Assembly (NCBI GenBank): GCA_000002445.1
Contig: CP000069.1
Span: 1,504,001 to 1,568,000 of the forward strand
Source: Trypanosoma brucei
Taxonomy: Eukaryota
Length of the DNA stretch: 64,000 bases
Reading direction: 5' to 3'
In this document: piece after piece, positions 6,517 to 49,160 of the stretch
Layout of the letters: every line of letters starts with the position of its first letter
How positions within the stretch are numbered: the first letter of the stretch is position 1
The notes under the pieces: model-generated
What the model was told of the DNA's origin: nothing
What the model saw: the letters and a program-made list of their open reading frames with translations, nothing else
Databases searched by the model: none
Translations under genes and position numbers: made by a program

Positions 6517-7904
6517 CGCAGTTGGCTCCTGTTGTTCAGCGGTAGGGCTTATGCCTTTCTTTTGTACTTGTAGATCCTTTAAAGTTTGGAGAAAATACGG
6601 TTGGGGAACTAGTTCTGTCAATTTCTGCGTGTGCTTATGGTCCTATTTGTTGCCAGTAGCCTTTCCTAGCCGACATAGCTTGTAAAGATGAAATTTCTGT
6701 TAAAGGTTTTGTTCACACGCAGGCTGGAGGCGGTGCCCCATGTCGCGCTACTCGTTGTTTCAGTCTTTCTGGTTACGGGCTGGCGAACAGGCAAAGCGAC
6801 CCTTCTCTAATTATTTTTCCACACTTCCTACGCGAGACGGGTTTCTGGCCTTTGCTTTTTGTTCCTTCTCCGACTAATTTGGTTTTATTGAGTCGAGTTT
6901 TTAGATGAGGAACTGAGTCGATTGTAGAGAACGTCTCGATTAAAAGTTGTTTTAAACGTCTGTATGGCTTTGACTAACTGGTTCTTGAAGGGTGTTTGAT
7001 TTATTAAGTTGGTTGTTCTGCCTTCTTAAAATACGGGGGCGTTGATATGTATACTTGTTTTCACCTCTCTGAATCATATTTGCTTCAACTCTTCCTTGAC
7101 TCTTTTAAACTCCGTCCCCCTGCCTTCCATTTTTTTGGTTGCCTTCAGCCACAAACTTTTCGCTGCGCTACTGACCTCGTTGTTTAAGTTTTTAATCGTG
7201 TACAAAGAGATTCAGAATAGCATAACACTTACTACTTATAATTTCAAGTTATGATTTTCTATATTTATGGCATTTATTGTTGCGTAAATCCAATTCTTTT
7301 ACCATTGAAAATACCACACACATTTCTGCACTTTAAAATTCAAATCTTGTGGTTTGTTATTGATTCTAGTTTATGGAAATTCTCATAAGTATGCTGGTTA
7401 TCATAAGCAGGTGCTGTTTCTTCTTGTAGAATGAAGACCCTTTTGTTCACACTTGTGATTATCTGTTATCTTTTTAGTTGGATACCACTTGGGAATGTGT
7501 AATATCGGCGCTAACAGCGCTTTTATCCCTGCACTCTCTTCGCTTTTGCGTGCTTTTAACAGTGGCCTCATGATTACCCTCAAATGTATTACTTTCTCTT
7601 TAAAAGGCTTTACTGTTTGGCCTTTGAATCAGTACAGTAGTGGGGGTGTATCATTTCTTACTTGATGCTCTTCGTAAACATCTTCTGGTGTTTTGTGGTG
7701 ATGTGTTTTTATTCTTTACGGCTATTTTTGTCTTTATCTTTTCTCATTAACTGTTTCTGCACATATCTTGTTTATCTTTAATAGGAAAATAATATCATCT
7801 ACAGTGCATGATGGTGTCTTTAACTTTAATTTCCTTTTTCTTTTTATATAATGACACATGAAGCCTTTATTGCGTTCCAAATTGCACATATATCATCTCT
7901 TTCA

Positions 7905-17661: not shown

Positions 17662-18159
17662 TACTCACTTGATCTCAACCCTCCGCATTTAAGTCGGCCA
17701 CCATATTTCAAACTATATGTTACACCATTTCTTACGCAGCATCTATTCACTTATATTTGACATAGGAAGCACAAACCACCCCGTATTATTTCTTTCTGTG
17801 CCGCTTTGAGCTTTTGCGTGTCCATTTGTTTCTTTCTGTATCTTCTTCCCTATTTTTGTCAACTGCATCACTCGCTTTGAGTAACACAGAGACTCTATTT
17901 GACATGTAACAACTAATTCTGTCTCTAACCACTATATTTCTTCACCTTCTCAATGTGCATCATGGTACTCATCACCATGTTTATGTACGAAAATGTTCGT
18001 ATTCCCTATTCTTTTTCTTTTGTATCTCTTATTTTCCTTCAATAACATCAAACGTGCTCACAGTCTGTCTTATTACTTCTTCTACTCACTCATTTACTCA
18101 AATTATGCCATTGCAATTATTTTAAACTCCTTATTTTGGGGGTTATTTCAGCTGGCAGC

Positions 18160-18290
18160 CCTCTTATTTTAATATTCGTATACACACTCACAACACTATC
18201 CTAGTATTATCATTATTGGCATTTCTATATTATTATTAACACTACTTCTACTATAGCCCTAACTGATAGCGACAGAATAACGAAATAATC
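18160..18290 (-). repeat. 70-bp repeat (about 1-1.5 copies)
   Basis: cctcttattttaatattcgtatacacactcacaacactatcc ... tattattattaacactac. Confidence 0.8.
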
Positions 18291-18589
18291 AAAATTATTG
18301 TACTAATCATTTTTGACGCCCTTTCATCCTACTACGTTATGTCCACATGCCACTATTATACACATTTTAGTATAAGTTTAACTATTTTTCTCACTTTTAA
18401 AAGGTTTTTAAAAACTGTTAAAATATAGAAATTTTTGTCAATTTCTATCAAATTCTTTCAAAATATCAGCGTGTCATTGTATTTTATAAAATTCATGACG
18501 TTCGATAAAATTGAGCATATATCCTTATAGTTCTACAAAAACCCACAAAAAAGCAGTAATCAGGGCAATTTTTTTTTTTATCTAGAAGA

Positions 18590-19914
18590 AAACTAGTAGA
18601 GCGGTACTTGCCTTCCATCCATCCAAAAACAGCTTCTTTCTGGCGGAATGTCACCTTTTACTGGTCCTTTGGCTTCCTTACTTAATGTGCACTTTTCTTC
18701 TCATTATTTGATTCGGCGTTCCACTTGCATGGCGGTTTACAATCTGTTTCCTTGTCTAACTTATTGCACTCTGCTTCTTTGGAGTCGATTGTTTCTTGGG
18801 TTTGGCGCTTGGGATGTTTGATAGTTTCTGCTCCATGTGCTACGGTTATGGTGGCTATGTCCAGAGTGTCGCATAACTGCCACGCTTGAACCTCTGCTGC
18901 TTTCAGTTGGGCATGCATTTTGGCTAGCTCGGTTCTTATGGTATATGCCTTTTTGAGTTCTTTCGTTGCTTGGAGCATGTTTTCGACCCATTTTACTTTG
19001 TGGAATGTTCCTGTTCCCACTGCAGCCATGTAATCAACACAAGTGGCTGAGATGGTGCCACCTAGGCCGTGCCGCCCGCTGTTGTCGTTGTCTGTGAAGG
19101 CTTTGTTGACGAGTGAGGATTCTACTTGGGTTACCGCCGCCATGAGTAGCTCTAGCGTGACAGTTTTTGCGTCGGTGGTGGGCTTAAATTTTGTTACAAT
19201 GGCCTTATACGCGCTGACTCCAGCGGCCGCGTCGCTTCCTGTTCCATAGTTGGCTCTGTTCTCGCCTTCTACGCAGATTCCGTTGCTTGTGCTTGCCGTG
19301 CCGCAAACACATGCAAGCGCTTTGGCTAGATTTTGCGCCGCCGGTTTTACCCTGCCGCCGCTGTTGCATGCGTTGTCTCCGGTGTCGAAAGTCTGTTCGG
19401 CTGCTGTGTTAGCCGCCGCGTCGCCGAAAACCGCTGCTTTTCATAATTTTTTGGCATTTTATTTTAAGTTTTGAAACTCCTTTTGTTGGCCGGCTGCTTG
19501 CTCTGCTGTAACCGCCGTTGAGTTGTACAGCCTTTCTAAAGCAGTGTGTGCTGCCCGCTTCCCTGGGCTTTCCGGAGGCCTTTTGTAAATTTCCGATTTG
19601 TCACTGTTCGTTTCGGTTTTTATTGTATCTTTGATTGCTGTAAATTCTGTGTCGGTTGTGAAGATGCCAAAAGTTTTATTATTGTAGTGTTCGTCTGGTA
19701 TTGTTGCCGCGTACAGTGCCCTCACAGCTGTCGGTACCTCGCCATTCGCATCCTGGGTATTGAATTCCGCCGCGTCGATGCTGCCTGTTGCTGCCTGATA
19801 TGCTGCACAAAGAGCTTCGTACTGTTACGCATTTTCTCGCTTCGAGTGTGACACTGAAGTCAAAGCTGCTAGTGCGGTTAGTAGACTTGCTATTAGTGGC
19901 CGCATTGCCTATAA
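18590..19914 (-). pseudogene. VSG: VSG pseudogene (B-type, in-frame stops, degenerate GPI signal)
   Basis: Reverse-complement translation starts MRPLIASLLTALAALTSVSHS (signal peptide) at about 19914. It contains LACVCGTASTSNGICVEG. ORFs 19459..19725(-) and 18682..19143(-) are separated by stops. The C-terminal domain reads ...CNKLDKETDCKPPCKWNAESNNEKKSAH*. The tail is a shifted degenerate ...KKLFLDGWKASTALLVFF. Confidence 0.8.
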
Positions 19915-20469
19915 GTTAGTAAATTTATGGTTTTGTTTATGTTGAAATGCGTAACGTTTTGTGCAATTATAGTGGCTTGTGAGTAAGTTTGAATGTCACA
20001 GAAACCTTATCGGTTTGTGGGGTACTTTAAGACTTTAAGGCTAAAACATTAATTTTAATTAGAAATTACCGTGGAAGGTGAAGTTTCGTGATCAAACATC
20101 TTTGAAGTACCTTCGGAATCACATTTTATAAGTCTTAAACAAATACCCTTCTTTAAAAGCGTAAATACAAATTTTGTCATACGTGAAATTAAATTTTTTT
20201 CAACCTCTCGTATAAGCTCAAATTTTTCTTAACTCTATCGTACTAAATTTCCTCCTTTTAAAACACGCGTAAAAACTAAGATTTTTTACAATTAACTTCG
20301 TTTTCTCCTCTCATGCAATAGTGTACCATTGAAAAAATAAATGGCGCCTTTCAAATTTCATCACTATGCTGAATAGAAAAGAGTCTCTCCTCATAATCTA
20401 ATCCAATCATTCCTCACTTCAAAACAAATCTTTGTCAAACAGCTTCTTTTTGAGTTGCACTACAAATAA

Positions 20470-21060
20470 GAAATGGCTTGTAAATACTCTTATCTGACTG
20501 CCATTCCTCACTTCCCTTTAGTAACTCTCCAAAAGCATATTCAAATTTTCTTAAACTCCCATACTCTGGCTATTAAACCGCCAACACTAAGATACGGTTT
20601 TCCACTAGGAGGTGATTTTAGTAAATGGGGTAATTTTTTATCCTCTTCTTTTCTGTAGCCCACATTGAAAAACCAGTAACATCTCTGCATATGCTCCTTG
20701 TGATCTGAGTTCATAATCAGATTCAACTGAGGAGCATAACACTCTGATGTTGTCATGAACATAATAGGGGAAATATGCTTCTCTTTTACTATATCTTCTT
20801 CACCAAATCTATCTTCATTATCAGCGCTATTTTGTACAAAATATTCCACAGCATTTTTATACTTATTTCCATCACTAACAATAACAGCAGATCCATTTAC
20901 AGTTATTACAATATCCTCATCACCTGCATTATGCATTTCCAAAAATTCCATAACTCATCTAGGCCTCTTAACATGACTATACAAACCTTCCATAGCAATT
21001 GTAATAATTTTAACATGGCTTATTTAGTACTTAATATTAGCCTGCACCATCCTTTAGTTG
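20470..21060 (-). repeat. Conserved VSG-upstream module, copy 1, carrying small ORF 20541..20951(-) (136 aa, acidic, ends ...GGLIARVWEFKKI)
   Basis: DNA and protein similarity to 24240-25040 and 47590-48130. Shared protein motifs are VITVNGS/VIV.DG.KY, MNSDH.EHM.RC and IARVWEF(K/R)KF. Confidence 0.6.
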
Positions 21061-22029
21061 CATGAGTTTGAACCACAAAAACAAACACTCTGGAATTCTT
21101 AGGCTTTTCATCTGTAATATTTACTTCTTTATAATGTTTAATATATGTTGAGCTTAAACACGCAAAATGTAATAGTAGTGATAATAATAAAATCGAAAGT
21201 TACTACATTTTATTCCCTAACCTATATTTAAAATTTTGAAAGAGATATAATAAAAAATTTAAAAAAGAGTAAGTTTCATCACTAAGCTTTTTGGTTAATG
21301 AAAACGTGTTTACGTGTATGAGTAAGTAATGCCTTGATATTGTGATTATATAGCTTCTGAAATGTGCCTATTTAGTGCATTAATTTAATCTTTTGGCGTG
21401 CATTAAAGATTCCTGTTTTTAGTAGTTAGCCGCGGCAACATACAGTGCAGTTCTTCCATGCACAGTCCTTCTCTATGAATTTATCTGGTAATTACAAGTA
21501 GCAGGCTGAACTGATAGGGACAGAAATAATAATAATTTTACAACCCTTCTGCGCAACTCCTCTCAACCATCTAATTTAGGCATTATCCTCTAACCAACAT
21601 GGATTTATGAGCCACCGATACTCGATTCTACAATTTTCTTCGTTGTGGCACATATTCATTTTTGTGCCAAATGTGCAGCACAATCACATCTTCTGCCGTT
21701 TACTTTGTGCCAAACTCGTGAGCATTTCGTTGCAAAACTCTCTCTTTTATTTACTTTTTTACGTTCTGTTGCTACTCCTGCGAATTACGTTGATAATTCA
21801 TTTTGCCTGCTCACGGAACTCTGATTATCGCCTACTTTTGGCTTCATCACGTTCCTTTGTATAATCATGAACATAAACATATTTCTGTTTGAAACTGTAT
21901 ATTCCACAACCCTTTCTTCCTTTTTTATTTTTCTCTTACAAACTTTCTCACTTAATAAGTTACTTCCATTGCACCTTTGCAATTATTTAGGTGCTTCCAT
22001 TCTTCCTCTTCATATATTATTCACCAGCA

Positions 22030-22125
22030 ATCTTATTATAATACTCGTATATGCACACTCACAACACTCCTCCATCATTATTATTATCATTATCATTATA
22101 AACGTAACTAATATGTATAAAATAA
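22030..22125 (-). repeat. 70-bp repeat (about 1 copy)
   Basis: cttattataatactcgtatatgcacactcacaacactcc plus (ATT/ATC)n. Confidence 0.8.
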
Positions 22126-22315: not shown

Positions 22316-23878
22316 TTATCTTAAAATAGCAAAGTTTGATAAATTTATTAAATTTCTTAAAAGTGAGAAAAAATCTTTAAAATCTTTAGAGTAGTAAAAT
22401 ACAACCAAACCCCTAAAAGAAGCAGCTATTAGATCCAATTCTTTATTGATAAGAAAGCTGGAATCCTTGCAAGTTTCACCTTCCCACTTGCATCCATCTT
22501 TGCAGTCCTCCTGCTTTTTCTTTTCGGAGTACTTTTTACCTTCTGTATTTGTTCCTACAGCTGCTCCTGTTCCTGCTGTGTTTGTCCGTGCTTCTCCCGC
22601 CTTAGCTTCGCACTTTCCATTGCTTTCCTCTCCTGTCCATTTGCACACTGCTTTGTCACTGTGTGGGCTTGGAAGCTGCCCGCCTGTCTTACTGCTGACG
22701 TTGCCCAGTGGTTCTTCCTCCGTTAGTTGCGTATAAATCGCTTCTGCTTTGGCATCTATTTCTGCCAGTCATTGGACCGCCTGTGTGCGCAGTTTCATGG
22801 CGTCCTCAGCTTGTTCGAGGATTGTTGCTGCTTCCTCGATTTCACTTATCTATGTGTTGGCGGTTATCTTACTCGGTGCTTTGGAAGCCAATAAGTCGGT
22901 GGAATCAAGACAGCCAGCTCCATCGCTTGTTGCACAGTTAGCGCCGTTGCTATTGGGTTCCCCCAGTACGGCAGCGACGCTCGTGCTCCCGGTGTGGGTG
23001 TGTGTTTTGATCCGTGAAAGTACAGTTGTTAAGGCCTGTCGTAAGTTTACTGCTGTTAGGCTTCGTGACTTTGCTTGGAGGCACTTTTGGTGTATGCTTT
23101 CATAGGCTGTTGCCATAATGACTGCGTTCCAGTCCGCTATCGTGCCCGTCGTAGCATTCTCACATGTGTCTTTGGTTTGTGCGCCTTCCTTGGCGCACAG
23201 GAAGACGGCCGCACTGCACACCGTGGAAGGTTGCGCCGTGATTTTGCAAGTCGCCTCCCGGCTTGTAGCCGCGGCCCCTTTACAAGCGTCTGCTGCGTTT
23301 GTGTGCTTTGTTTGTTTTCCGAACAAGGCTCCATTGGGCTTGGTAGCCAGTTCTGACCACGGTTTTTGCAGGTTCTTGTGCGGTCCTGTGTTGTAGTCTG
23401 AGACTACTTTTGTTGCTTCGGCTATTAGGGCTGTTATTTGCATTCGTGCTGCCTTGCCTACCGGACCGTCGCTGATTCCCGCTGGTAAGAGCTTGTTCCC
23501 TGGCATCTCGTCTGCTTTCGAAGCTGCAATAGCTGCGCTTTCCCATTTGGTCCATTGCTGCTTGCAATTTGGCTCCCAATCAAGGGCTTTGCAGAACTCT
23601 GGATCGTTGTTTCGTTTGCTTGCGTCTGTTATGAATTTGTTCCGCCAGCTGGTGAGGCTCAGTGACATGTTGATCTTGTCAAAGTTTCCTGGCATCGTCA
23701 GTTCTGAAGATGCTGGATCGACGCCGGTTGTGCTCTCCAATCCTGTTGATATGAGCTGGCAGATCGCATCGAGGTCTGCGAGGTTGATGACGTGGTCTTC
23801 AGTCGCACTTACCTTTTGCATTAGCGCCACATTGAGCAGTGCTGCATATAGTAGTAGAGCTTTTGTTTCAGGCTTCAT
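22316..23878 (-). pseudogene. VSG: VSG pseudogene (N-domain ORF 342 aa plus frameshifted C-terminal domain)
   Basis: ORF 22850..23878(-) starts MKPETKALLLYAALLNVALMQKVSATEDH (signal peptide). ORF 22316..22648(-) carries the C-terminal domain cysteines ...CKDGCKWEGETCKDSSFLINKELDLIAASF... with a degenerate hydrophobic tail. The two ORFs are in different frames. Confidence 0.8.
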
Positions 23879-24239
23879 GTAGCCTATTTGCTGACTATCT
23901 GAAAGAATAAAGAAACTTCTTTTTTTCCAGAGCTTTTGAAACTGTATCGCTTTTAATTAGTTATACCGCTTGTGCGTCATCTCTTTCTTCTTTTTGGCCG
24001 TTATTCAGCTGATCCATAGGAAATGCTTTTCGGTCGTTCACAGTGTTTGGTGGTGCATGGTGTTATCCCAACTCCTTGCGTTATGCACCTTCCAGTCTAC
24101 AACGTTTTAAATTTAAACAAATCATCCTTTTTAAACGGATTCCCACAAATATACTCATACTTAACAGGTAATTTCTCCACGGATACTGCATAAGTTTGCA
24201 GATTCCCAAGAGTGTGATTCGTATTAAATTTCTTTCCTA

Positions 24240-25040
24240 CCCACTATTTATACCAAGTGAGATTTAATAGGATCTTTCTAGTCTTTTCCTTCCAGGATAA
24301 CGCACGTCCTTGAAAGTGAAGGAACGCAGCTTTTCTGAAGGAAGTTTCGTAATGGACTGAGAAAAACTGATCGTCGTAATCTAATCCAATCAACTCTCTT
24401 GGTAAAACTAATCTACCGCTTACTTTTGCTTCCCGTTTCACACTCCACAATAGCAACGGAATATAAATACTCTGTTCTGACCACCATTTCTTCCCGTCTT
24501 CTAATAACTCTCCAAATACATATTCAAATTTTCTTAATTCCCACACTCTTGCTATCAAACCATCACCACTAAGATAAGTTTTTCCACTAGGAGGTGATTT
24601 TACTAAATGAGGAAAGTTTTTATCCTCTTCTTTTCTGTGCCCAACATTAAAAACATAATATCATCTCTCCATATGCTTCTTGTGATGTGAGTTCATAATC
24701 AGATTCAACTAAAGTGCATAACATTGTGGAGTTGACACGAATAGAATTAAATAAATTTTTTGTCCCTTTACAATATTCTCTTCATTTTCTGCATAATTTT
24801 GTATAAAATATTCCACGGTATTTTAATATTTTTTCCATCAGAAATAATAACATCAGATCCAAAAAAAGCTATTATAATATCCTCATCACTTGCATTTTGT
24901 ATTTCTAAAATTCCATAACCCATCTAGGACTTTTAACATGACTATACAAACCTCCTATTGTAATTGTTATAATTTAAACATTGCTTAGTTTGTTACCTAA
25001 TAATATTCTACACCATCCTTTAGTTGCATGAGTTTGAACT
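24240..25040 (-). repeat. Conserved VSG-upstream module, copy 2 (ORF 24244..24558(-) begins MIARVWELRKFEYVFGELLEDGKKWW...)
   Basis: Nucleotide similarity to 20470-21060 (e.g. ...taactctccaaa.acatattcaaattttcttaa..tcccacactct.gctat.aaacc... and ...ccataac.catctagg.c.tttaacatgactatacaaacc...). The ORF is frameshifted relative to copy 1. Confidence 0.6.
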
Positions 25041-26039
25041 ACAACTACAAACATTCTTGCCTCCTTAGGATTATTATATGTTGTGTTTTTTGTTGTTTAT
25101 ATTATTACCCTGAAGAGATACAGCTCTTCAAAACACTAAATGTAATATAAAATGTAGCAGTAAAGTTGTTAATTTACCGATTTTTTCCACTTAACTGTAG
25201 AAATTTGAACGAGAGAAAAGCAAGAATTTTAGAAACCTTAAGAAAATAATTTAGTTACATCACTACCTTAATTATAAAAAAGGGTTTACGCATATAGTAA
25301 GTAATCACTTGATATTTTTGTAATACAGCTGCCAAAGGGTGCACACTTAATGTCTGCAGCTTATCTTTTAGCATGCATTTACCCTTTTTGTTCTAGAAAT
25401 TAGATTATAATACACCTGTGACTGTACACCGCGTGGACATTGTCTGTAAGTTTATCCACATTTCTTCGCCATCCATTTCTATATAAATGTTTCAACTGAA
25501 TATACCGATAGGTTCAGATATACTAAGAGTTTTGCTAGTTTTCTTTGCCAACTAACTAAGCCCGAAGGTTTCGTCATGAGAAGAACATCAGCGTTTCTTC
25601 ATGAACTTTTGCTACCATTTTCGTTACTAATATCTTTGATATAGCATCTACACATTTTTGTATCAAATACGGAGCGTCAAATACTTCAGATGTATCACTT
25701 TCTTCAGTACGTTTCTGCAGCTATTGCCTTTGTTTCTTTCTGCTCTCCATTCCGTCCCTTTCGTTCTCTACCATTTTTTCATGGCAATGTAGCGACTCCT
25801 TTAGTCATGTATATTAGACTCTGTCTCTTCTTAATAATCTTCTCATCATTTTCTTCTGTGAAATGATTACCGTATTCACGTCTCGTCATGAGACTATACA
25901 TATTTTATCTCTCTTTCTTTGATTTTCTGCATCCCTTCTATAATTATCATCTTACAAACTCTTCAACTCCCTCTTTACTACGGTTTCTTTTCCACTATTT
26001 TAAGGTCTCCTACTACTCTTGTGCATTTAGTCTTCAATA

Positions 26040-26135
26040 CAATTTACATTACAATATTATTATACACACACAGCACCATCATAAAAAACATCTCTATTAT
26101 ACCCCTAACTAATATACATAAAATAAACAAAATGA
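26040..26135 (-). repeat. 70-bp repeat, degenerate (about 1 copy)
   Basis: acaatattattatacacacacagcaccatc ... acccctaactaatatacataaaataaac. Confidence 0.6.

Positions 26136-28124: not shown

Positions 28125-28127
<3 letters not shown>

Positions 28128-28160
<33 letters not shown>
28128..28160. repeat. (CA)16 microsatellite
   Basis: cacacacacacacacacacacacacacacacac read directly. Confidence 0.95.
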
Positions 28161-28165
<5 letters not shown>

Positions 28166-41040: not shown

Positions 41041-41279
41041 TAATGACACTCATCTTTAATACTCTATCACCTTCCTGATTTGCACCCCTACGCACTTTTC
41101 ATACACATTTTACTATATCTATATTTTCAAAATAAATATTCATTATTTTTCAAATGCTTGACAAAAATTATTAAAATATATCACCTTTTAGTATATTTTT
41201 TAAAAACAGGAAATTTTATAAATTTAAACCAAAATATTTTAGAGTACTTTAAATATAATAGCAAAAATGCGAGCCAAAG

Positions 41280-41745
41280 AAAATCTTTGTTAATGACAAC
41301 AAAATTTCTTCCTGTGGTTTTTTTTCATCCTTTCTTCCTGTTGCTTCGTTCGTTACTTCTGCTCCTGCTTGTTGGTCCACCCAACTCATTGTGCACTTTT
41401 TCTTGGTTTTCTTTGCTTCTGAGTTCCATTCGCAGGGTTCTTGGTAATATCGTTATTTATCTTTGGCGTCGCAGTCTTTTTCCGTTTGTTCTCGCTTTTC
41501 TTTGCTAGAGGTAGGTACTTGGTCGCCAAGTGACTGCATTTTCTGCACTGGTAATTCTTCCTCCAGGCTAAAAATCAATACCTCCCTTTTTTCTGCTCCA
41601 ATTTATTGCCTTGTTTGTTGTCCTATGACCGCTGCTTTTAATTTGGTTGCCTCTGCCTGCTCCAGTGCTTTTCCTCTTCCCATTGACTTTTTTACGCAGT
41701 CTACGTCTTCGAATGCCGTCTGTTCTTTCTATCTGATACCCTGGA
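41280..41745 (-). pseudogene. VSG: VSG 3' fragment (C-terminal about 150 aa plus GPI signal), 5' part displaced by ingi insertion
   Basis: Reverse-complement translation gives ...SLEEELPVQKMQSLGDQVPTSSKEKREQTEKDCDAKDK... then ...CEWNSEAKKTKKKC... and a tail TTGRNFVVINKDFLWLAFLLL. A 3'UTR follows with 16-mer-like ttattaaaatatatca at 41168-41183. The coding sequence abuts the ingi 5' end at about 41745. Confidence 0.7.
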
Positions 41746-42238
41746 GATGCCGGCCACCTCAATGTGGTGCCAGGGTCCAGTACCCCGTATCATCGGGGGA
41801 AGCCAAGAGCCAGCAGCGTTCCTTTCATAGGGAACACTGCTGTGCTCCGGCTACGGCATCATACAGCACAGGGATCAGCAGCGTCTTGCTGGGACATCGT
41901 TTTTCATTTGTCGGTCCCTGAGCACGTGCCAGCGTGCCATCAGCAGTATATCATCCGCACTAAGATGCTGCTGTCCGGTGATGTGGAAGAGAATCCCTGC
42001 CTGTCGTTTCACGGGATGCAGTGGAACTGCGCCGGGCTATCTCAAGGAAAGAGATTAGCACTCCACAAAACCCTTGTTGATGAGCGGATCGCCTTTTGTC
42101 TGTTGAGCGAGACAAGGATGACGCCTGGAGAGGCGGCTTGCTTTAGCGTTGCTGGCTACCAACATCACGGAATAGCTCGTAACTGCAAAGGATGAGGTGT
42201 ATCAATACTAGTGAGAGGACATACCAGTCGAGACCGGT

Positions 42239-43462
42239 ATGGCCGTTGTTGGTCGCATTGAAAAAGTGCATGCAACAATTCACCTTGCACGTGGAACGGC
42301 GCTGACTGTCACGTCGGCATACATCCCACCAAAACACACCTTCACGGCAACTGACCTAGATACGCTTCTGACGACTGACGGTGCCCAGCTCATCGGTGCA
42401 GACGCTAACGCACACGCGTTGGCATGGGATCGCGCGAGCCCACCAAATACCAAGGGTGAAACCCTCACACAGTGGTGCATTGACAACCAGTTTCTGGTCT
42501 GCAACACTGGTGAGTGCACCAGGTACGAGCGCCACCACGGGGAGTCCACCCCTGATGTGACACTGTCAAGGAATTGCACAGTGTACACGTGGACATCGCT
42601 GTATTCTCCCGATAGCGATCACCATCACATATTTTTCGACGTTATCTTTGGAGACGACACAGATGCACTGAGCTGCCCGCGGCTTCGAAAGCCCATGTAC
42701 GCATGGCTAAAAGCTGACTGGAGGAATTTCCGTCTCAAGGTTGACGACCTCTGCAGGAAAATTGGTAGAGAGAAGAATGTCAACACCCTGGAACAGATAT
42801 TGAGCTCCGACATCTGCATTGCGACGAAGGTCTCCGTCCCCCGTGGCTGCAGAGCAACGCCACCACATTGGACACCTGAGCTCGCGAAACTCGATGAAGA
42901 GATCGCTGGATGCGGACCCTCCCACCGAAGGGAAAAGTTGGTAGCCACGCGTAAGCAGATCCTGGACCGTACCACAAAGAAGAGATGGAGCACGCTATGC
43001 TCCAGACTTGCGGTGTCAGACCGCTGCAGTTGGCACATTGTCAAGAAGGTATATGCGCCACGACCACTAACCACACCGGCTGTACTTGTTGATAACGCGG
43101 CCATCACGGACTACCGTCAAGCTGAGAGGTTCAGTAAACTGTACTCTTCCCGCGCAAGAAGGCACCCCGACTCACACCCACCGGCACCAATAAAGACGAT
43201 AGCGAGTGAGTTCAGTCCCATCACGATGGCTGAACTACGGAGATCGATCAAACTGCTACCGAGTGGATCCGCAGCCGGACCTGATTGCTTATACAACGAG
43301 GCACTGCAACATCTCGGCAGAACAGCGCTGAATGTTGTTGTGAGGCTATTCAATGAGAGCCTACGAACGGGAGTCGTGCCGCCTGCATGGAAGACTGGTG
43401 TTATCATCCCCATCCTGAAGGCCGGAAAAAGGCGGAGGACCTCGATTCTTACAGGCCTGTGA
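42239..43462 (+). CDS. ingi ORF segment (407 aa; about 98% identical to 15938..17161(-))
   Basis: MAVVGRIEKVHATIHLARGTALTVTSAYIPPKHTF... is near-identical to copy 1. Confidence 0.8.
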   Translation: MAVVGRIEKVHATIHLARGTALTVTSAYIPPKHTFTATDLDTLLTTDGAQLIGADANAHALAWDRASPPNTKGETLTQWCIDNQFLVCNTGECTRYERHHGESTPDVTLSRNCTVYTWTSLYSPDSDHHHIFFDVIFGDDTDALSCPRLRKPMYAWLKADWRNFRLKVDDLCRKIGREKNVNTLEQILSSDICIATKVSVPRGCRATPPHWTPELAKLDEEIAGCGPSHRREKLVATRKQILDRTTKKRWSTLCSRLAVSDRCSWHIVKKVYAPRPLTTPAVLVDNAAITDYRQAERFSKLYSSRARRHPDSHPPAPIKTIASEFSPITMAELRRSIKLLPSGSAAGPDCLYNEALQHLGRTALNVVVRLFNESLRTGVVPPAWKTGVIIPILKAGKRRRTSILTGL

Positions 43463-44496
43463 CGCTCACGAGCTGTCTCTGCAAAGTCATGGAGCGCATA
43501 TTTGCCACGAGGCTTAGAGACACTGTTGAGTCCCAGCTGACGCCGCAGCAATCAGGCTTTCGCCCCGGATGCTCAACGCTCGAACAACTCCTGCACGTCC
43601 GCGCTGCCCTCTGCCGCCCCACGCACCAATATCGTACGGGTGCTGTATTCGTCGACTACGAGAAGGCATTTGATACAGTAGACCACGACAAAATTGCGAG
43701 GGAAATGCACAGAATGAAGGTATCACCCCACATTGTGAAGTGGTGCGTATCATTTCTGAGTAACCGAACTGGCAGAGTGAGATTCAAGGAGAAGCTTTCC
43801 AGAAGCAGAACATTTGAGCGAGGAGTGCCACAGGGAACTGTCCTTGGCCCAATCATGTTCATTATTGTCATGAACTCGTTGAACCAGCGCCTTGCAGAAG
43901 TGCCGTTACTGCAGCACGGATTCTTTGCAGACAACCTGACGCTACTTGCGAGGCACACAGAGAGGGATGCCATCAACCACACACTACAATGCGGCCTAAC
44001 CGTGGTGTTACAGTGGCCAAAAGAGTACTTCATGTCTGTCAACGTAGCGAAAACGAAGTGCACACTCTTCGGGTTTATAGAGCGCCACCCCCTTACATTA
44101 CAACTGGACGGCAAAAGAATAGGAGCTGGCAGGACACCGAAGCTTCTAGGAGTAACATTCCAGTGTCTGCAGGGGATGGCAACACATGCTGCAGAAACGA
44201 GACGCAAGATGGATTTTAGACTACTGCAGATAGCAGCCATCTCAGCTTCTACATGGGAGCCAAGAAGACAAGTACTGAGAGCTTTTTATCTAGCACTCGT
44301 ACAGGCACACACCATGTATGGCATTGAGGTATGGTACTGGGACGCTTCGGAACGAAGTCGCGACCTCCTTGCAGCAGCACAACACAAAGCCAGTCGCATC
44401 ATAGCTGGCATACCGCATGGGACGCGCAAAGAGGACTCTCTGCTGGAAGCAAACCTCCTGCCACTCAAGACGACCGCTCTTGTGCGCAGCACGTAA
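43387..44496 (+). CDS. ingi reverse transcriptase segment (369 aa, terminated by stop, unlike copy 1)
   Basis: MEDWCYHPHPEGRKKAEDLDSYRPVTLTSCLCKVMERIFATRLRDT... with RT motifs. Confidence 0.85.
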   Translation: MEDWCYHPHPEGRKKAEDLDSYRPVTLTSCLCKVMERIFATRLRDTVESQLTPQQSGFRPGCSTLEQLLHVRAALCRPTHQYRTGAVFVDYEKAFDTVDHDKIAREMHRMKVSPHIVKWCVSFLSNRTGRVRFKEKLSRSRTFERGVPQGTVLGPIMFIIVMNSLNQRLAEVPLLQHGFFADNLTLLARHTERDAINHTLQCGLTVVLQWPKEYFMSVNVAKTKCTLFGFIERHPLTLQLDGKRIGAGRTPKLLGVTFQCLQGMATHAAETRRKMDFRLLQIAAISASTWEPRRQVLRAFYLALVQAHTMYGIEVWYWDASERSRDLLAAAQHKASRIIAGIPHGTRKEDSLLEANLLPLKTTALVRST

Positions 44497-44499
44497 TTC

Positions 44500-44904
44500 A
44501 TGCTGATGTGTGAGTCACGAGGCGGATGTTTGCGCCACAGTGCTGAGAAAGTATACCACAGCAAACACCCAGTCAGAGTCTTACATTCCCGCATCATGCG
44601 GTCCTATCCCCACCTCCACATTGAGCCACGCGAGCACCCACTAGAGACATCGACGCTCCGCCACAGTTGCCGACCGCTATTTCACACGCAGATAAAGCCC
44701 GTATGCGCTGATGACCCTGACGATGTCAAAAGGGAGGCTTCCGAAAAATGGATTGCACGGCATTTTGCACGGAGGGGGAAGGAGCCACCGCGGCGAGAGC
44801 ACTACGAATTGTGGACTGATGGATCCGTGTCCCTCGGTGAGAAGTCCGGAGCAGCTGCCCTACTCTATAGAAACAACACGCTGATTTGTGCACCCAAGAC
44901 CTGA
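44500..44904 (+). CDS. ingi RNase H-like segment
   Basis: ...HYELWTDGSVSLGEKSGAAALLYRNNTLICAPKT. Confidence 0.7.
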   Translation: MLMCESRGGCLRHSAEKVYHSKHPVRVLHSRIMRSYPHLHIEPREHPLETSTLRHSCRPLFHTQIKPVCADDPDDVKREASEKWIARHFARRGKEPPRREHYELWTDGSVSLGEKSGAAALLYRNNTLICAPKT

Positions 44905-45009
44905 GCAGAGGAACTCTCATGCAGTTACAGAGCGGAATGCGTAGCATTAGAGATAGGACTGCAACGGCTGCTAAAATGGCTTCCGGTATACAGAAGCACA
45001 CCGAGCAGG

Positions 45010-46182
45010 TTGTCCATCTTCTCTGACTCGCTGTCAATGTTAACAGCACTGCAGACAGGCCCCCTAGCCGTAACGGACCCAATTCTAAGACGACTATGGA
45101 GGCTTCTGCTTCAAGTTCAGAGAAGGAAGATACGTATCCGACTGCAATTTGTGTTTGCCCATTGTGGCGTGAAACGGAATGAGGTTTGCGATGAAATGGC
45201 CAAAAAGGCCGCTGACTTACCACAGTTGCGAGACACATGGATCCCCGACATCATTGCTTATGCGAAGCGAGTGCTTAGATCGGAAGAAGTCCATGAGAAC
45301 ACTCATAGGTTTGGTATCACGGGCAACCACTTTCCAACAAAACATAAAGAAGAACTGACGAGGGAAGAAGAAACGGCACGGGCACGCTTTCGGGTTGGGT
45401 CTTCAAGACACTATGGATGGATGTTGCGAAAGATCAACCCGAGTGTGCCTCCACAGTGCCGATGGTGCAACCCGCAACATGCAGCGATAGGACCAACAAT
45501 ACAAACAGCCCCACCTGTTGCGACACGCACTCTTCAGAGAACCTCCGAATCAAACAAATGTACGGAATGTGATGCCACATACCAATGCCGCTCGAGTGCT
45601 GTAACGCACATGGTAAACAAACACGGCTTTGTGCGAGCTGATGCCCTCCGGAGGATCAAATACGGCGATGCAACACCCGCAGTGGATATCCCCCCGGAGC
45701 CCCCTCCAGTGGTGGCGATCGTTCCTCTACCATCGAGCACACGAGTCCCGATGAGACCGCAGGTGCTTCATTGTACCCTCTGTGCCTCCAAATTCGCAGT
45801 GCCAGGCCGACTATTACACCACCTTAGAACAATACATGGCATAGGCAGCGGTAGTTGCCGCGTGAAAAGGGGGCGAGAGAACGAAGACTCAGTGCAAGGA
45901 GATGGTAGCGTCCCAGCAGCGCCAGCCTCTCAGGATACACGGAAGCTGCCGTTTCAATGTGACTTGTGCGAGGCGAGCTTCGGTACACACTCTTCCCTGT
46001 CACTACACAAGAAATTCAAACATAAGAGCATAGTGACGGAGGACGGTACCGTGGTGTTGGTGCAATTCCCTCGTAAGCGTGCCCGTGAGGGAAACGTTGA
46101 CGTCCCGGGGAAGGGCGAGGTGCAGTGTGGTGTGTGCCAAAAAAGTGCTCAGTTGCGGGGCCTCCCTCATCCGACACTGTAA
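45010..46182 (+). CDS. ingi C-terminal segment with C2H2 zinc fingers
   Basis: CTECDATYQCRSSAVTHMVNKHGF, HCTLCASKFAVPGRLLHHLRTIHG and FQCDLCEASFGTHSSLSLHKKFKHKS. Confidence 0.8.
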   Translation: MSIFSDSLSMLTALQTGPLAVTDPILRRLWRLLLQVQRRKIRIRLQFVFAHCGVKRNEVCDEMAKKAADLPQLRDTWIPDIIAYAKRVLRSEEVHENTHRFGITGNHFPTKHKEELTREEETARARFRVGSSRHYGWMLRKINPSVPPQCRWCNPQHAAIGPTIQTAPPVATRTLQRTSESNKCTECDATYQCRSSAVTHMVNKHGFVRADALRRIKYGDATPAVDIPPEPPPVVAIVPLPSSTRVPMRPQVLHCTLCASKFAVPGRLLHHLRTIHGIGSGSCRVKRGRENEDSVQGDGSVPAAPASQDTRKLPFQCDLCEASFGTHSSLSLHKKFKHKSIVTEDGTVVLVQFPRKRAREGNVDVPGKGEVQCGVCQKSAQLRGLPHPTL

Positions 46183-47089
46183 GGCTTTCCACAAAGGTGA
46201 GGGAGTCGAGCTTAAATGCAGCAAAATCACAAAATTGGGTGCCACTGATTCCCCGCATACAAACACATCCATGTTGGTGTGCCAGACAGGCGGAAGGCAG
46301 TGTGCTAGCAAAACTGGCCTCACCCTACATCAAAAGAAGATGCACGGTATGAGAGCAGAGCGCACTGTTACGAGCCAACGCGGCGACTGCAAAGAAACGT
46401 CGCTGCACCTGATGAGCTGTCCAGGTTTGAAGGAGTTACGTGTCAGGTTTGCGGTAGAGGGTGTGTGTGTACAAGATGTATGTTTCTCTAAAAGGCTGGC
46501 GCAATTTCTCATTGCGGTTGAACGGAGCCGGCCGCAGGTGAAGTCCTCACCTAAGGTAAAAGTCATACAACCCACTCTCCCTTCTGCAACTTCCCCCTTA
46601 TTTCTGAGAGTGGAGCTAGCAGGAAAAGCACCGGACGCATGAATAGTCCAGACACCCTCAGAGACAGAGGGGGTATGCAATCAACAAGCAACAGAAACAG
46701 AAAGAGGGAGAGAGAATAATAAACGAATAACAAAAATCAAAACAAAAGGATTGCTAATTGACATCTTCGGGAGAGTCTGGGGAGGGGTTCTTTTCGCCCC
46801 ATCTGCTGTAATGTGTTCAACTGCGGAGCTACAACAAAAATTATAGAGGGTGTGTTAGGATGAATAAAAAAGGGAGACTCTGCCACAGTCGCCAGACCGA
46901 TAGCATCTCAGGGCTCTACGGTGATGGCTGATGGCCGCGCCAGTGGGGGGAAACTCTCACGAAGACACGAAGAAAATTCAAAAAAAAACGAACACACTCT
47001 TCTTCGCACCCTTGTTTGGTGGTTAAGTAGAGTGCTTGTCGAACATTGTACAAGGGTAGATCCCAGGGGGCGGAGAGTATCTAGCTTAC

Positions 47090-47135
47090 ACTAAGAATGA
47101 ATCTGCCTCAATGTGGCGCCAGGGTCACGTACCAG
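47090..47135 (+). mobile_element. Short sequence resembling the ingi/RIME/DIRE 5' signature (possible degenerate element remnant)
   Basis: gcctcaatgtggcgccagggtcacgtacc compared with the ingi 5' gccggccacctcaatgtggtgccagggtccagtacc. It lies about 100 bp after the ingi poly(A). Confidence 0.35.
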
Positions 47136-47589
47136 AAGAGAAATCGACTGGAAAGCCAAATGTTCCATCCAAAAGTCGGTTGCAATACTGAATATGCTGT
47201 GGCTGCTCCATGAAGAAAGAACCATTACTTAGTGTTGCACCACGGTTCAGTACCCTGCTCAGGTGGGGGAACCAAAATCCCTGACCCAACTTCCGGCCGG
47301 GGAGGCAGATGGATATGGTAAACATGGTTCAGATGCAATGTGGGAGGGATCGAATGGGCGTCAAGTGGAGACCACCCCCCTAGACACGCACACATGCGGT
47401 CTCTCACCCGTGGGTATCAATTCTCCAAAAAACAGGGAATTTCAGTGGGTAGGCACGCTGGTCTCCAGCGCTGAGTCCCACACTACCATATCGTCGTGGC
47501 GTGGTGTGCGTAAATGCATTTCCTCCTTACCATCGGGTGGACAGACTGCATGGTCCTGAAGGTTGCGCGAGGGGAAAAAGTAACGGTTG

Positions 47590-48130
47590 ATTCTATCTTT
47601 AATCAGTTATTTTAAGCATTTCATTAACCGCCTTTTCAAACTTTTTGAATTCCCAAACTCTAGCTATTATGTCACCTTTATTGAAGTGTGCTTTATAGTT
47701 TGCAGGCCACTTTAACATATGAGTTAGTTTCTTTTGTTCCTCTTCTTGGCATGTTGCTTCAAAAAAAAACATGCGCACCTCTCCATATGCTCCCTGTGAT
47801 CTGAGTTCAAAGTCAAGTACAGCCGAAGCGCATAACACTTGGTAGTCGTTACAAATATAATGGGATAAACTTGTTTCTCTTTTACTACATCCTCCTCGCT
47901 AAACTTCCCTTCATTTTCCGCAGTGTTTTGTATAAAATACCCCACAGCGGTTTCATATTTTTCTCCGTCAGTAACAATAACATCAGATCCGTCAACAGTT
48001 ATCACAATATCCTCATCAATTTTATCCTGTTTTTTAAAAATTTACATAACCCATCTAGCTCTTTTGACATTGCTATGCAAGTTTCCCATAGCAATTGTAA
48101 TAATTTTAACATGGCTTAGTTTCGCACTCA
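47590..48130 (-). repeat. Conserved VSG-upstream module, copy 3 (ORFs 47724..48005(-) and 47599..47838(-), frameshifted)
   Basis: MITVDGSDVIVTDGEKYETAVGYFIQNTAENEG...LNSDHREHMERC... and ...GDIIARVWEFKKFEKAVNEMLKITD. It is homologous to the modules at 20470-21060 and 24240-25040. Confidence 0.6.
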
Positions 48131-49089
48131 GTATGTTTCCCGTCGTGTACACTTAGAGAAATAACGTGCTTAAACACACTAAATGTAATAACAATGATAA
48201 TAGCAAAGTTTTCAAGATACAAAACTATATTCCTAATCTACATTTAAAGTTTAAAAGTGCTATAAGAAAAATATTGAAACTTTAATAGAAGATGCCATTT
48301 GCGCCAATAAGATGTTTACATATATGAGTAATTCCTTAACATAGTTATGATATATGTGCCGATGTGTGTATTATCAGTGTATGAAACTTATTTTTGAAGG
48401 CGTACCTATAATTTTTTAAAAAAACTTTACTTTCAGTAACACATAGTGCCGCACACTATGTGTATTGCGTTGCTTTGCTGCATTGACAATTAGTGCCTAT
48501 GCATTTTTATTGGAATGAAGGTATCTAGTTGCAGTGATTAATTCTAACATGCTATAAAATTTGCCACCCTCGCTTGATGACTACCTCGACCATTCGCTAT
48601 CGTCAAGTGCCTCCAATCAAAATGGTTTCCGAACTATTTATATTGTTGTTTCAATCACATCCGTAGAAGAATCTATTTATTTGTGAGTGTATTTTAGAAC
48701 ACAACCTTCTCCTATATATTATTTTCTTTTATGCTTGTTGCAGTGCATGTTTCACTCCACATTTTTTCTCATATTTATTTCCTTCCGTCGCTGCTTATGC
48801 ATATTACGCAGTGACTTCATTTAGCCTTCAAACTGTTCTTTGTCCCTGCCTCTTCCCCATCTATTTGTGTATGATGAAAGCTATCGCCACTTTTCAACTT
48901 CAAACTGCGCATATTTTATCTATATCTCCTTCTTTCTTTTCTTAAATAGCATTATTTGTGTCTTCTCCCTGTCTTAATAACTGCACCACTCATTCACTTA
49001 CTCTCATCATACCATGGTAATTTTTTTCAACGGTTTAATTTTGTCTCTCCATTCGATCACTTAAAAAAACTTTCCTCATAATGTTAATA

Positions 49090-49160
49090 AATGCGCTTAA
49101 AACACTCTTTTATTATTACTATTAAAATAACAGATTAGAATATCACTCATTTTTAATATT
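49090..49160 (-). repeat. 70-bp repeat remnant (core deleted)
   Basis: cttaaaacactcttttattattactattaaaataacagattagaatatcactcatttttaatattc. It matches the flanks of the repeat at 52690-52830 but lacks the GTATATACACACTCACAAC core. Confidence 0.45.

What the first reader, a model, noticed from the sequence alone, without database searches (positions are those of the whole stretch)
20470..21060. Unrecognised conserved module in VSG upstream regions encoding a small acidic protein (three copies: 20470-21060, 24240-25040, 47590-48130)
Three cassettes carry, between the 70-bp repeat and the VSG, a homologous 0.5-0.8 kb segment with a minus-strand ORF (best copy 136 aa, 20541..20951). Shared protein motifs are DEDIVITV(N/D)GS.VIV.DG.KY, F.EED.VKEK, MNSDH.EHM.RC and GG(L/D)IARVWEF(K/R)KF. 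Copies are about 50-60% identical at protein level. Each is disrupted differently: a frameshift in copy 3, an altered N-terminus in copy 2 and an early stop in copy 1. This suggests a decaying gene family co-amplified with VSG cassettes. I do not recognise it as any ESAG, RHS or retroelement protein.
Basis: seen in the sequence. Interest (0 to 1): 0.6.

Follow-up and report, generated by a model that had tools for sequence, protein, structure and literature searches.

The report
Three decayed ESAG3 pseudogenes upstream of VSGs
The "unrecognised module" is three broken copies of ESAG3, a well-known trypanosome expression-site gene already known to litter VSG arrays, so the finding is real but ordinary.

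Summary
Three homologous minus-strand segments with the quoted motifs exist, and only three (tblastn E 1e-40 and 6e-37; DNA and protein profiles find no others).

A profile of the three repaired reading frames hits UniProt Q26748 (368 aa) at E 4e-111, 79% identity, 100% coverage. That protein's 90% cluster consists of the ESAG3 proteins of T. brucei bloodstream expression sites. The 136-aa "small acidic protein" is ESAG3 residues 93-226 (82% identity, E 2.6e-70).

Frameshift-aware alignment gives:
- Copy 1: all 368 codons at 21214..20122, with 3 frameshifts and 8 stops.
- Copy 2: all 368 codons at 25187..24100, with 3 frameshifts, 6 stops and a 15-nt deletion.
- Copy 3: roughly 48240..47580, lacking about 81 nt internally and cut at about codon 247 by an ingi retroelement.

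Residues that a 2026 preprint reports as catalytic are mutated in copies 1 and 2 and partly in copy 3. dN/dS of 0.14-0.32 in the ESAG3 frame shows descent from a once-constrained gene.

The literature already records ESAG3 pseudogenes in VSG arrays and 3' of the 70-bp repeat in expression sites BES7 and BES15. Verdict: already known, low interest.

The parts
20122..21214 (-). ESAG3 pseudogene copy 1. Full length, ESAG3 codons 1-368.
   Evidence: Frameshift-aware protein-to-DNA alignment to P0001 gives 66.6% identity over 362 codons. Frameshifts lie at codons 67, 225 and 296. Stops lie at codons 4, 90, 263, 270, 291, 305, 336 and 342. tblastn HSPs: aa 68-237 at 77-79%, aa 223-296 at 72%, aa 16-76 and aa 292-368 at 40-46%.
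20541..20951 (-).
   Evidence: phmmer E 2.6e-70, 82% identity, query 2-135 = P0001 93-226. Its ATG is internal. Two codons upstream, a TGG->TGA change at 20957 (ESAG3 W90) closes the frame. Its stop results from a +1 frameshift at 20549.
24100..25187 (-). ESAG3 pseudogene copy 2. Full length, ESAG3 codons 1-368.
   Evidence: 58.4% identity over 356 codons. Frameshifts at codons 32, 94 and 118. Stops at codons 20, 72, 123, 166, 182 and 321. A 15-nt in-frame deletion is also present. tblastn E 3.6e-99.
47580..48240 (-). ESAG3 pseudogene copy 3. It lacks about 81 nt internally and is 3'-truncated.
   Evidence: Secure match of aa 63-197 at 48134-47730 (61-64%) and aa 162-239 at 47832-47602. One stop precedes the DEDIV motif and one 2-nt frameshift lies at 47774. 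An 81-nt gap relative to copies 1 and 2 removes about aa 33-60. The nhmmer match runs 48451-47559. The 5' limit at 48240 is approximate.
41737..47579 (+). ingi retroelement that truncates copy 3 at about ESAG3 codon 247.
   Evidence: Canonical ingi 5' end TACCCTGG(A/C)GATGCCGGCCACC at 41737, 98% identical over 3772 nt to the inverted ingi at 17663-13892. RT, RNase H and endonuclease Pfam hits fall on the ingi ORFs. The 3' end reads ...GCGCGAGGGGAAAAA at 47579. No target-site duplication was found.
21215..21450 (-). Conserved 5' flank of ESAG3 pseudogene copy 1. Equivalents lie at 25188-25425 and 48241-48451.
   Evidence: Three-way DNA alignment at 55-66% identity. The nhmmer envelopes include these flanks.
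22025..22068 (-). 70-bp repeat heading cassette 1. Core GTTGTGAGTGTG at 22054-22065.
   Evidence: It lies about 810-840 nt upstream of ESAG3 codon 1.
26052..26110 (-). Single degenerate 70-bp repeat heading cassette 2.
   Evidence: Read directly in the sequence (gatggtgctgtgtgtgtataataatattg). It lies about 0.9 kb upstream of ESAG3 pseudogene copy 2. Identified by eye, not scored.
49095..49140 (-). Probable degenerate 70-bp repeat remnant heading cassette 3.
   Evidence: Read in the sequence (aatagtaataataaaagagtgttttaagc). Weak call.
18560..19905 (-). VSG pseudogene of cassette 1, about 215 nt downstream of ESAG3 pseudogene copy 1.
   Evidence: ATG at 19905 (MRPLIASLL...) with in-frame stops. 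The C-terminal ORF 18682-19143 hits Pfam VSG_B. The 3' end coordinate is approximate.
22850..23878 (-). VSG (B-type N-terminal domain ORF) of cassette 2, about 220 nt downstream of ESAG3 pseudogene copy 2.
   Evidence: Pfam VSG_B E 8e-31. tblastn detects no similarity to the cassette 1 VSG.
41250..41736 (-). VSG C-terminal remnant left on the far side of the ingi element (cassette 3).
   Evidence: Translation shows a cysteine-rich C-terminal domain and a GPI-signal-like tail (TTGRNFVVINKDFLWLAFLLL). The 3' flank 41201-40880 matches the VSG 3' flank at 62247-61921.

Best explanation
The three segments are pseudogenes of ESAG3 (expression site-associated gene 3) in a Trypanosoma brucei-type subtelomeric VSG array. 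Each sits in the stretch between the 70-bp repeat and the VSG, the "co-transposed region".

**Shown here**
- Full-length colinear homology to the 368-aa ESAG3.
- Multiple independent frameshifts and stops in each copy.
- Loss of residues reported as catalytic.
- Truncation of copy 3 by an ingi element.

**Inferred**
- They encode nothing functional today. The 136-aa ORF is simply the longest undamaged stretch.
- They descend from once-functional ESAG3 genes. The low dN/dS between copies reflects divergence accumulated under selection before inactivation.
- They now persist as passenger DNA that is copied along with its VSG.

**Speculative**
- They may add a homology tract usable in recombination with ESAG3 copies in expression sites.
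For: **Identity as ESAG3**
- The profile of the three repaired frames hits P0001 (Q26748/AAA63784, 368 aa) at E 4.2e-111, 79% identity, 100% coverage.
- P0001's 90% cluster holds 15 proteins, most named ESAG3, from Lister 427 expression sites, TREU927 and T. b. gambiense.
- An exhaustive phmmer of the 136-aa ORF against 1.84 billion representatives gives P0001 as top hit at E 2.6e-70. Most of the weaker full-length hits whose source names were looked up are ESAG3-like or ESAG-like proteins of various Trypanosoma species; the rest looked up are short "hypothetical" ORFs and many were not looked up.
- tblastn of ESAG3 covers aa 16-368 in copy 1, aa 9-368 in copy 2 and aa 63-239 in copy 3.
- The lesion map comes from frameshift-aware alignment.
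- Each copy is 57-85% identical to intact ESAG3 but only 19-28% identical to chromosome-internal ESAG3-like proteins.

**Loss of function**
- P0001 numbering matches the preprint's catalytic residues.
- Copy 1 has D110N, D113A, W242Q, E244D and Q245K, and H297 is lost.
- Copy 2 has D110F and G215D.
- Copy 3 has G216D and lacks everything after about aa 247.
- D110N is the catalytic mutant the preprint made to test the active site.
- Singleton changes on the window copies give pN/pS of about 0.8-1.0. Counts are small and this is weak evidence.

**Coding ancestry**
- dN/dS is 0.14-0.32 in the ESAG3 frame only.

**Literature**
- ESAG3 is "also in VSG arrays" (PMC3607257).
- An ESAG3 pseudogene lies 3' of the 70-bp repeat in BES7 and BES15, and the 5' ESAG3 copy in expression sites is conserved as a pseudogene (PMC2567434).
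- Pseudogenic ESAG copies are prevalent in VSG arrays (PMC4766357).
Against: - No intact ESAG3 DNA and no T. brucei genome assembly could be reached with these tools. I could not confirm how this exact locus is annotated, nor build a DNA phylogeny.
- The first single-sequence word-index search found nothing. That was a tool false negative, later overturned.
- The low pairwise dN/dS could also arise from repeated gene conversion by functional copies rather than from old constrained divergence.
- Transcription and translation of the 136-aa ORF were not tested.
Confidence: 0.97

Rival explanations
1. A novel, previously undescribed small acidic protein family specific to VSG upstream regions.
For: No Pfam hit. 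No hit in the first word-index protein search.
Against: Full-length, colinear 55-85% identity to ESAG3 at E down to 1e-111. The ORF is an internal fragment bounded by a nonsense mutation and a frameshift.
Confidence: 0.005
2. Functional ESAG3 or ESAG3-related (GRESAG3) genes whose apparent frameshifts and stops are sequencing or assembly errors.
For: A strong coding signature is present. The preprint states that about 50 intact ESAG3-related genes exist in subtelomeric and internal regions.
Against: Copies 1 and 2 each carry 9-11 independent lesions, including substitutions creating stops, a 15-nt deletion and an 81-nt deletion. Key catalytic residues are replaced, including D110N, D113A and D110F. 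Copy 3 is physically cut by an ingi element.
Confidence: 0.015
3. The ESAG3-derived tract has been exapted. It is kept in some array cassettes because it gives extra upstream homology to ESAG3 copies in expression sites, or a donor archive for segmental conversion of active ESAG3. On this view it is not merely neutral debris.
For: All three cassettes share the same layout: 70-bp repeat, about 0.85 kb, ESAG3 pseudogene, then (in cassettes 1 and 2, where the VSG start survives) about 0.2 kb and the VSG. Hertz-Fowler et al. note that recombination breakpoints in expression sites coincide with ESAG3 loci and that ESAG3 pseudogenes occur 3' of 70-bp repeats in BES7 and BES15.
Against: Only 3 of about 16 cassettes in the window carry it. 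The copies are 24-45% diverged at DNA level from each other, which is poor substrate for homologous recombination. Singleton substitutions look neutral. One copy tolerated an ingi insertion.
Confidence: 0.07

Closest known systems
ESAG3 of T. brucei bloodstream expression sites (e.g. Q26748/AAA63784, CAQ57304; 368 aa)
   Same: Colinear homology over the whole protein. The hydrophobic leader, the DEDIV...DGSD region, GGLIARVW, the WWSEQS region and the C-terminal ICG...LFK tail are all recognisable. Identity is 57-85% in the shared core.
   Different: The window copies have no intact ORF, carry 3-11 disabling lesions each, and have lost catalytic residues. They lie in a silent array, downstream of a 70-bp repeat. 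The canonical position is upstream of it, between ESAG5/4 and ESAG8/2.
ESAG3 pseudogenes 3' of the 70-bp repeat in BES7 and BES15, and ESAG3 pseudogenes in VSG arrays (Hertz-Fowler 2008, PMC2567434; Tiengwe 2012, PMC3607257)
   Same: Same gene family, same pseudogene status and same position relative to the 70-bp repeat and the VSG.
   Different: Those are in telomeric expression sites of Lister 427. These are in an internal array cassette. Sequence identity to those particular pseudogenes could not be checked because no DNA was available.
T. b. gambiense DAL972 CBH11491 "hypothetical protein, unlikely" (P0002) at FN554968
   Same: Another decayed ESAG3 copy. ESAG3 aa 1-354 is split by one frameshift at L001 9501-10552. 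It is 58-63% identical to the window copies and 70% identical to intact ESAG3.
   Different: Different subspecies and locus, with ISG65 and ESAG1 as neighbours. It is less decayed.
ESAG3-like / GRESAG3 proteins (e.g. Q38A25, Q38A26, Q38CS1) and ESAG-like proteins of T. vivax, T. grayi, T. rangeli, T. theileri
   Same: Same superfamily, sharing D104, D110-G111-x-D113, C162, C182 and G215...RVWA.
   Different: Only 19-33% identity to the window copies. They have longer N-terminal membrane-anchor regions.
Human LH3/PLOD3 glycosyltransferase (GT-A) domain
   Same: Weak but consistent sequence similarity across the Rossmann-like start and the DXXD motif: phmmer E 0.029, Pfam GT_PLOD E 0.005, family profile E 4.9e-4. 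The preprint reports a GT-A fold with RMSD 2.4 A to LH3.
   Different: This is a remote relationship of the parent family only and has no bearing on the dead copies here.

Membership tests
ESAG3 | Significant, colinear sequence similarity to expression-site ESAG3 proteins over the full length | tested here: met
   Profile search E 4e-111 with 100% coverage. tblastn E 1e-99, 2e-86 and 6e-51. Codons 1-368 aligned in copies 1 and 2.
ESAG3 | Closer to ESAG3 proper than to ESAG3-like / GRESAG3 paralogues | tested here: met
   57-85% identity to ESAG3 against 19-28% to P0018, P0022, P0030, P0027 and P0024.
ESAG3 | Intact ORF of about 368 codons with a start codon and signal peptide | tested here: not met
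   3 frameshifts plus 8 stops in copy 1. 3 frameshifts plus 6 stops in copy 2. Copy 3 is truncated. No ATG at codon 1. The hydrophobic leader survives only as a relic in copies 1 and 2. They are therefore filed as pseudogenes of the family, not functional members.
ESAG3 | GT-A catalytic residues: DXXD (D110/D113), G215/G216, W242, E244/Q245, H297 (preprint 10.64898/2026.01.27.701950) | tested here: not met
   Copy 1: D110N, D113A, W242Q, E244D, Q245K, H297 lost. Copy 2: D110F, G215D. Copy 3: DXXD kept, G216D, and the rest missing.
ESAG3 | Genomic association with VSG expression sites or subtelomeric VSG arrays | tested here: met
   The window is a VSG array with 70-bp repeats and ingi elements. 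The literature places ESAG3 copies in such arrays.
ESAG3 | UDP-glucose-dependent O-glucosyltransferase activity on VSG | not testable with these tools
   Requires biochemistry. The lesions make activity implausible.
VSG co-transposed region | Sequence lying between the 70-bp repeat and the VSG start | tested here: met
   Cassette 1: repeat at 22054, pseudogene 21214-20122, VSG ATG at 19905. Cassette 2: repeat at about 26052, pseudogene 25187-24100, VSG ATG at 23878.
VSG co-transposed region | Copied together with the VSG during duplicative transposition | not testable with these tools
   Needs switch-event data. BES7 and BES15 carrying an ESAG3 pseudogene 3' of the repeats is indirect support.
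ingi/RIME or other retroelement protein | Similarity to the retroelement's endonuclease, RT or RNase H ORFs | tested here: not met
   The ORF has no Pfam hit. The ingi ORFs are separate and merely abut copy 3.

The most novel reading that the evidence does not exclude
The ESAG3 pseudogene tracts are not pure debris. A subset of array VSG cassettes would retain them because they provide either an alternative upstream recombination anchor with the ESAG3 copies of expression sites, or a silent archive for segmental conversion. Such conversion would diversify the active ESAG3 O-glucosyltransferase, by analogy with mosaic VSG formation.
Probability: 0.06. Interest if true: 0.45.

Novelty: already known. 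Interest (0 to 1): 0.07.

Why it matters
It matters little beyond correct annotation. The segments should be labelled ESAG3 pseudogenes, not a new gene family.

Two practical points follow:
- Small ORFs in trypanosome subtelomeres can be internal fragments of known genes. A single-fragment search may miss the parent: one search found nothing, and the T. b. gambiense copy is annotated only as "hypothetical protein, unlikely".
- A 2026 preprint reports ESAG3 as the VSG O-glucosyltransferase. A catalogue of its decayed array copies could therefore help anyone studying ESAG3 evolution or RNAi and CRISPR off-targets.

Tried and rejected
- **Pfam scan of the 136-aa ORF:** no family.
- **Word-index search with the single ORF:** no hit. 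This was a false negative of that tool. The profile of repaired frames and the exhaustive phmmer both found ESAG3.
- **Exact look-up of the ORF and of a window VSG in public assemblies:** not on record, so the exact source locus could not be identified.
- **MAFFT alignment of stop-free fragments (A3):** it misaligned the C-terminal half onto the N-terminal half. I briefly considered an internal duplication and dropped it, since it is explained by fragment misalignment within one GT-A domain.
- **The 36-aa ORF (MLKLLQLLW...) conserved in copies 1 and 3:** considered as a upstream ORF or the true N-terminus. Rejected, because it is an out-of-frame reading of ESAG3 codons 70-105. The in-frame reading is the one with lower dN/dS and it matches ESAG3.
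- **"MTKFVFTLLKK" after copy 1:** initially read as a VSG signal peptide. It is in fact the ESAG3 C-terminal region out of frame. The VSG ATG is at 19905.
- **Target-site duplication around the ingi cutting copy 3:** none convincing. The element has replaced the pseudogene's 3' end and the VSG N-terminal part, so this is not a simple insertion.
- **Third protein search with full-length ESAG3:** returned only itself.
- **Marcello & Barry 2007:** not held in the library.

Full report
**1. Setting**

The window is a Trypanosoma brucei-type subtelomeric VSG array.
- About 16 VSG genes or pseudogenes lie on the minus strand. Pfam VSG_B, Trypan_glycop and Trypan_glycop_C hits support this. One ORF matches the solved VSGsur structure.
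- The cassettes are separated by minus-strand 70-bp repeat cores (GTTGTGAGTGTG): 26 matches against 5.3 expected.
- Two ingi retroelements lie in inverted orientation, 98% identical over 3772 nt.

**2.

- The 136-aa ORF at 20541..20951 (-) exists.
- tblastn of that ORF finds two other loci: 24831-24526 (63.6% over 107 aa, E 1.6e-40) and 48017-47730 (59.4% over 96 aa, E 6e-37). Each has a second HSP in another frame.
- DNA identity is about 76%.
- A DNA profile of the three copies and an ESAG3-family protein HMM find no further copy in the window.
- The quoted motifs are all present.
- Similarity is not merely non-coding. Mismatches follow codon position 2 < 1 < 3. dN/dS is 0.14-0.32 in the ORF frame against 0.44-2.9 in the other two frames. 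The same holds for the C-terminal continuation shared by copies 1 and 2.

**3. The units are larger than reported**

- DNA homology runs 20388-21404 against 24371-25379. In a three-way alignment it starts about 230 nt upstream of the coding similarity.
- The copy 1 stop at 20541 is caused by a 1-nt insertion. In the shifted frame the sequence continues (KFEYAFGELL...IGLDY...), homologous to the 104-aa ORF of copy 2.
- Upstream of the copy 1 ATG, the same frame reads MEGLYSHVKRPR*VMEF. The other copies have TGG where copy 1 has TGA.

**4. Identification**

- Pfam found nothing for the ORF, and a single-sequence word-index search also found nothing.
- I repaired the frames of the three copies by hand (alignment A2) and searched with that profile. 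It hit P0001 (UniProt Q26748 / AAA63784, 368 aa) at E 4.2e-111, 79% identity, 100% coverage. It also hit a T. b. gambiense "hypothetical protein, unlikely".
- P0001's 90%-identity cluster contains 15 sequences. Most are named "expression site-associated gene 3 (ESAG3) protein" and come from the Lister 427 expression-site sequencing, TREU927 and T. b. gambiense.
- An exhaustive phmmer of the unmodified 136-aa ORF against 1.84 billion representatives independently gave P0001 at E 2.6e-70, 82% identity, with ORF 2-135 equal to ESAG3 93-226. Most of the weaker full-length hits whose names were looked up are ESAG3-like or ESAG-like proteins of T. brucei, T. vivax, T. grayi, T. rangeli, T. conorhini and T. 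theileri; the others looked up are short "hypothetical" ORFs, and many hits were not looked up.

**5. Anatomy of the three copies**

A frameshift-aware protein-to-DNA alignment, consistent with tblastn, gives the following.

| Copy | ESAG3 codons | Window (minus strand) | Identity | Lesions |
|---|---|---|---|---|
| 1 | 1-368 | 21214..20122 | 66.6% | 3 frameshifts, 8 in-frame stops |
| 2 | 1-368 | 25187..24100 | 58.4% | 3 frameshifts, 6 stops, 15-nt deletion |
| 3 | about 56/63-241 (securely matched) | 48134..47599 | 55% | see below |

- Copy 1 is uneven: aa 68-296 is 72-79% identical, while both ends are 40-46%.
- Copy 3 keeps a recognisable 5' flank up to 48451. It lacks about 81 nt corresponding to about aa 33-60. 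It has a stop before the DEDIV motif and a 2-nt frameshift at 47774. It ends at the 3' end of an ingi element (...GCGCGAGGGGAAAAA at 47579).
- That ingi element (41737-47579, + strand) has no clear target-site duplication. On its far side only a VSG C-terminal remnant survives (41250-41736). The element has therefore replaced the pseudogene's 3' end and the VSG N-terminal part.

**6. Layout of the cassettes**

| Cassette | 70-bp repeat | ESAG3 pseudogene | VSG |
|---|---|---|---|
| 1 | 22054 | 21214-20122 | pseudogene, ATG at 19905 |
| 2 | degenerate, about 26052 | 25187-24100 | ATG at 23878 |
| 3 | probable remnant, about 49095 | truncated copy | replaced by ingi |

- Spacing is about 0.85 kb from the repeat to ESAG3 codon 1, and about 0.2 kb from the ESAG3 end to the VSG ATG. 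Weak colinear similarity also exists in the 0.85-kb stretch.
- The VSGs of cassettes 1 and 2 show no similarity to each other.

**7. Relationships**

- In the region common to all copies, each window copy is closer to intact expression-site ESAG3 (83-85%, 66-70%, 57-60%) than to the other window copies (70%, 55%, 48%).
- All three are far from ESAG3-like paralogues (19-28%).
- This star-like pattern fits independent decay from ESAG3 proper. It does not fit a separate family recently co-amplified with its VSGs.
- Lineage-specific singleton changes give pN/pS of about 0.8-1.0 in the window copies. Counts are small (6, 6 and 15 changes), so this is only weak support for neutral evolution now.

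**8. Function of the parent gene and state of the copies**

- A 2026 bioRxiv preprint (10.64898/2026.01.27.701950) reports ESAG3 as a Mn2+-dependent, UDP-glucose-specific GT-A O-glucosyltransferase. It is required for O-glucosylation of VSG3.
- The preprint names the key residues: a DXXD motif (D110/D113), G215/G216, W242, E244/Q245 and H297. P0001 carries exactly these residues at these numbers.
- Copy 1 has D110N, D113A, W242Q, E244D and Q245K, and has lost H297.
- Copy 2 has D110F and G215D.
- Copy 3 keeps DXXD but has G216D and lacks everything beyond about aa 247.
- My own sequence searches give weak but concordant support for the LH3/PLOD3 glycosyltransferase relationship: E 0.029, then 0.005 to Pfam GT_PLOD, then 4.9e-4 with a family profile.

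**9. What is already known**

- Hertz-Fowler et al. 2008 (PMC2567434) list "ESAG3 pseudogene 3' of 70-bp repeat" for BES7 and two ESAG3 pseudogenes for BES15. They note that the 5' ESAG3 copy in expression sites is conserved as a pseudogene. They also note that recombination breakpoints coincide with ESAG3 loci.
- Tiengwe et al. [quoted passage not shown]
- Sistrom et al. 2016 (PMC4766357) state that pseudogenic ESAG copies are prevalent in VSG arrays.
- Both the element and its position are therefore known.

**10. Mechanism and verdict**

- Shown: these are non-functional ESAG3 relics.
- Inferred: they are passenger DNA within the co-transposed region and are copied along with the adjacent VSG.
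- Speculative (about 6-7%): they are retained as homology tracts or as a conversion archive.
Its "decaying gene family" idea is right. Its claim of an unrecognised, non-ESAG small acidic protein is refuted by the very test it proposed.
- Novelty: already known. Interest: low.

Noticed in passing
window 13892-17663 (-) and 41737-45508 (+): Two ingi retroelements in inverted orientation, 98% identical over 3772 nt. They flank about 24 kb of VSG cassettes whose orientation is nevertheless unchanged. Beyond the shared 3.8 kb the two elements differ.
   Followed up: partly
window 41250-41736 and 47580-47600: The ingi element at 41737-47579 has no convincing target-site duplication. It joins ESAG3 pseudogene codon 247 or so to a VSG C-terminal remnant. 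This implies a deletion or an ingi-mediated rearrangement rather than a simple insertion.
   Followed up: partly
window 17664-18200: Another cassette has its 70-bp repeat (18183) followed after about 0.5 kb by the other ingi element. Its post-repeat sequence (18137-18027) resembles that of cassette 3 (49041-48931, 67% identity).
   Followed up: partly
L001 9501-10552 (T. b. gambiense DAL972, FN554968 1317249-1337812): An ESAG3 pseudogene with a single frameshift. The public record annotates only a 187-aa "hypothetical protein, unlikely". Its neighbours include ISG65, a VSG fragment and ESAG1.
   Followed up: partly
window 20906-21016 and 48002-48112 (-): A 36-aa ORF (MLKLLQLLW...MRIL) is open in both copies 1 and 3. 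It is an out-of-frame reading of ESAG3 codons 70-105 and is probably meaningless.
   Followed up: yes
window 20122-21214: Copy 1 is mosaic in its similarity to intact ESAG3. The core (aa 68-296) is 72-79% identical, while both ends are 40-46%. This could reflect a gene-conversion patch or uneven ancestral constraint.
   Followed up: no
window 5044-6621 (-): An intact 525-aa ORF has no significant Pfam VSG hit. It matches the solved structure of VSGsur (6z79) at E 5e-29 over residues 56-523, so it is a VSGsur-like VSG.
   Followed up: partly
window 28127-28165: An (AC)19.5 dinucleotide repeat lies in an inter-VSG region.
   Followed up: no
tool behaviour, vs 31 and 41: The word-index protein search missed an 82%-identical database protein when queried with the 136-aa ORF. 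It found that protein with a three-sequence profile. A "no hit" from that tool is therefore not reliable evidence of novelty.
   Followed up: yes
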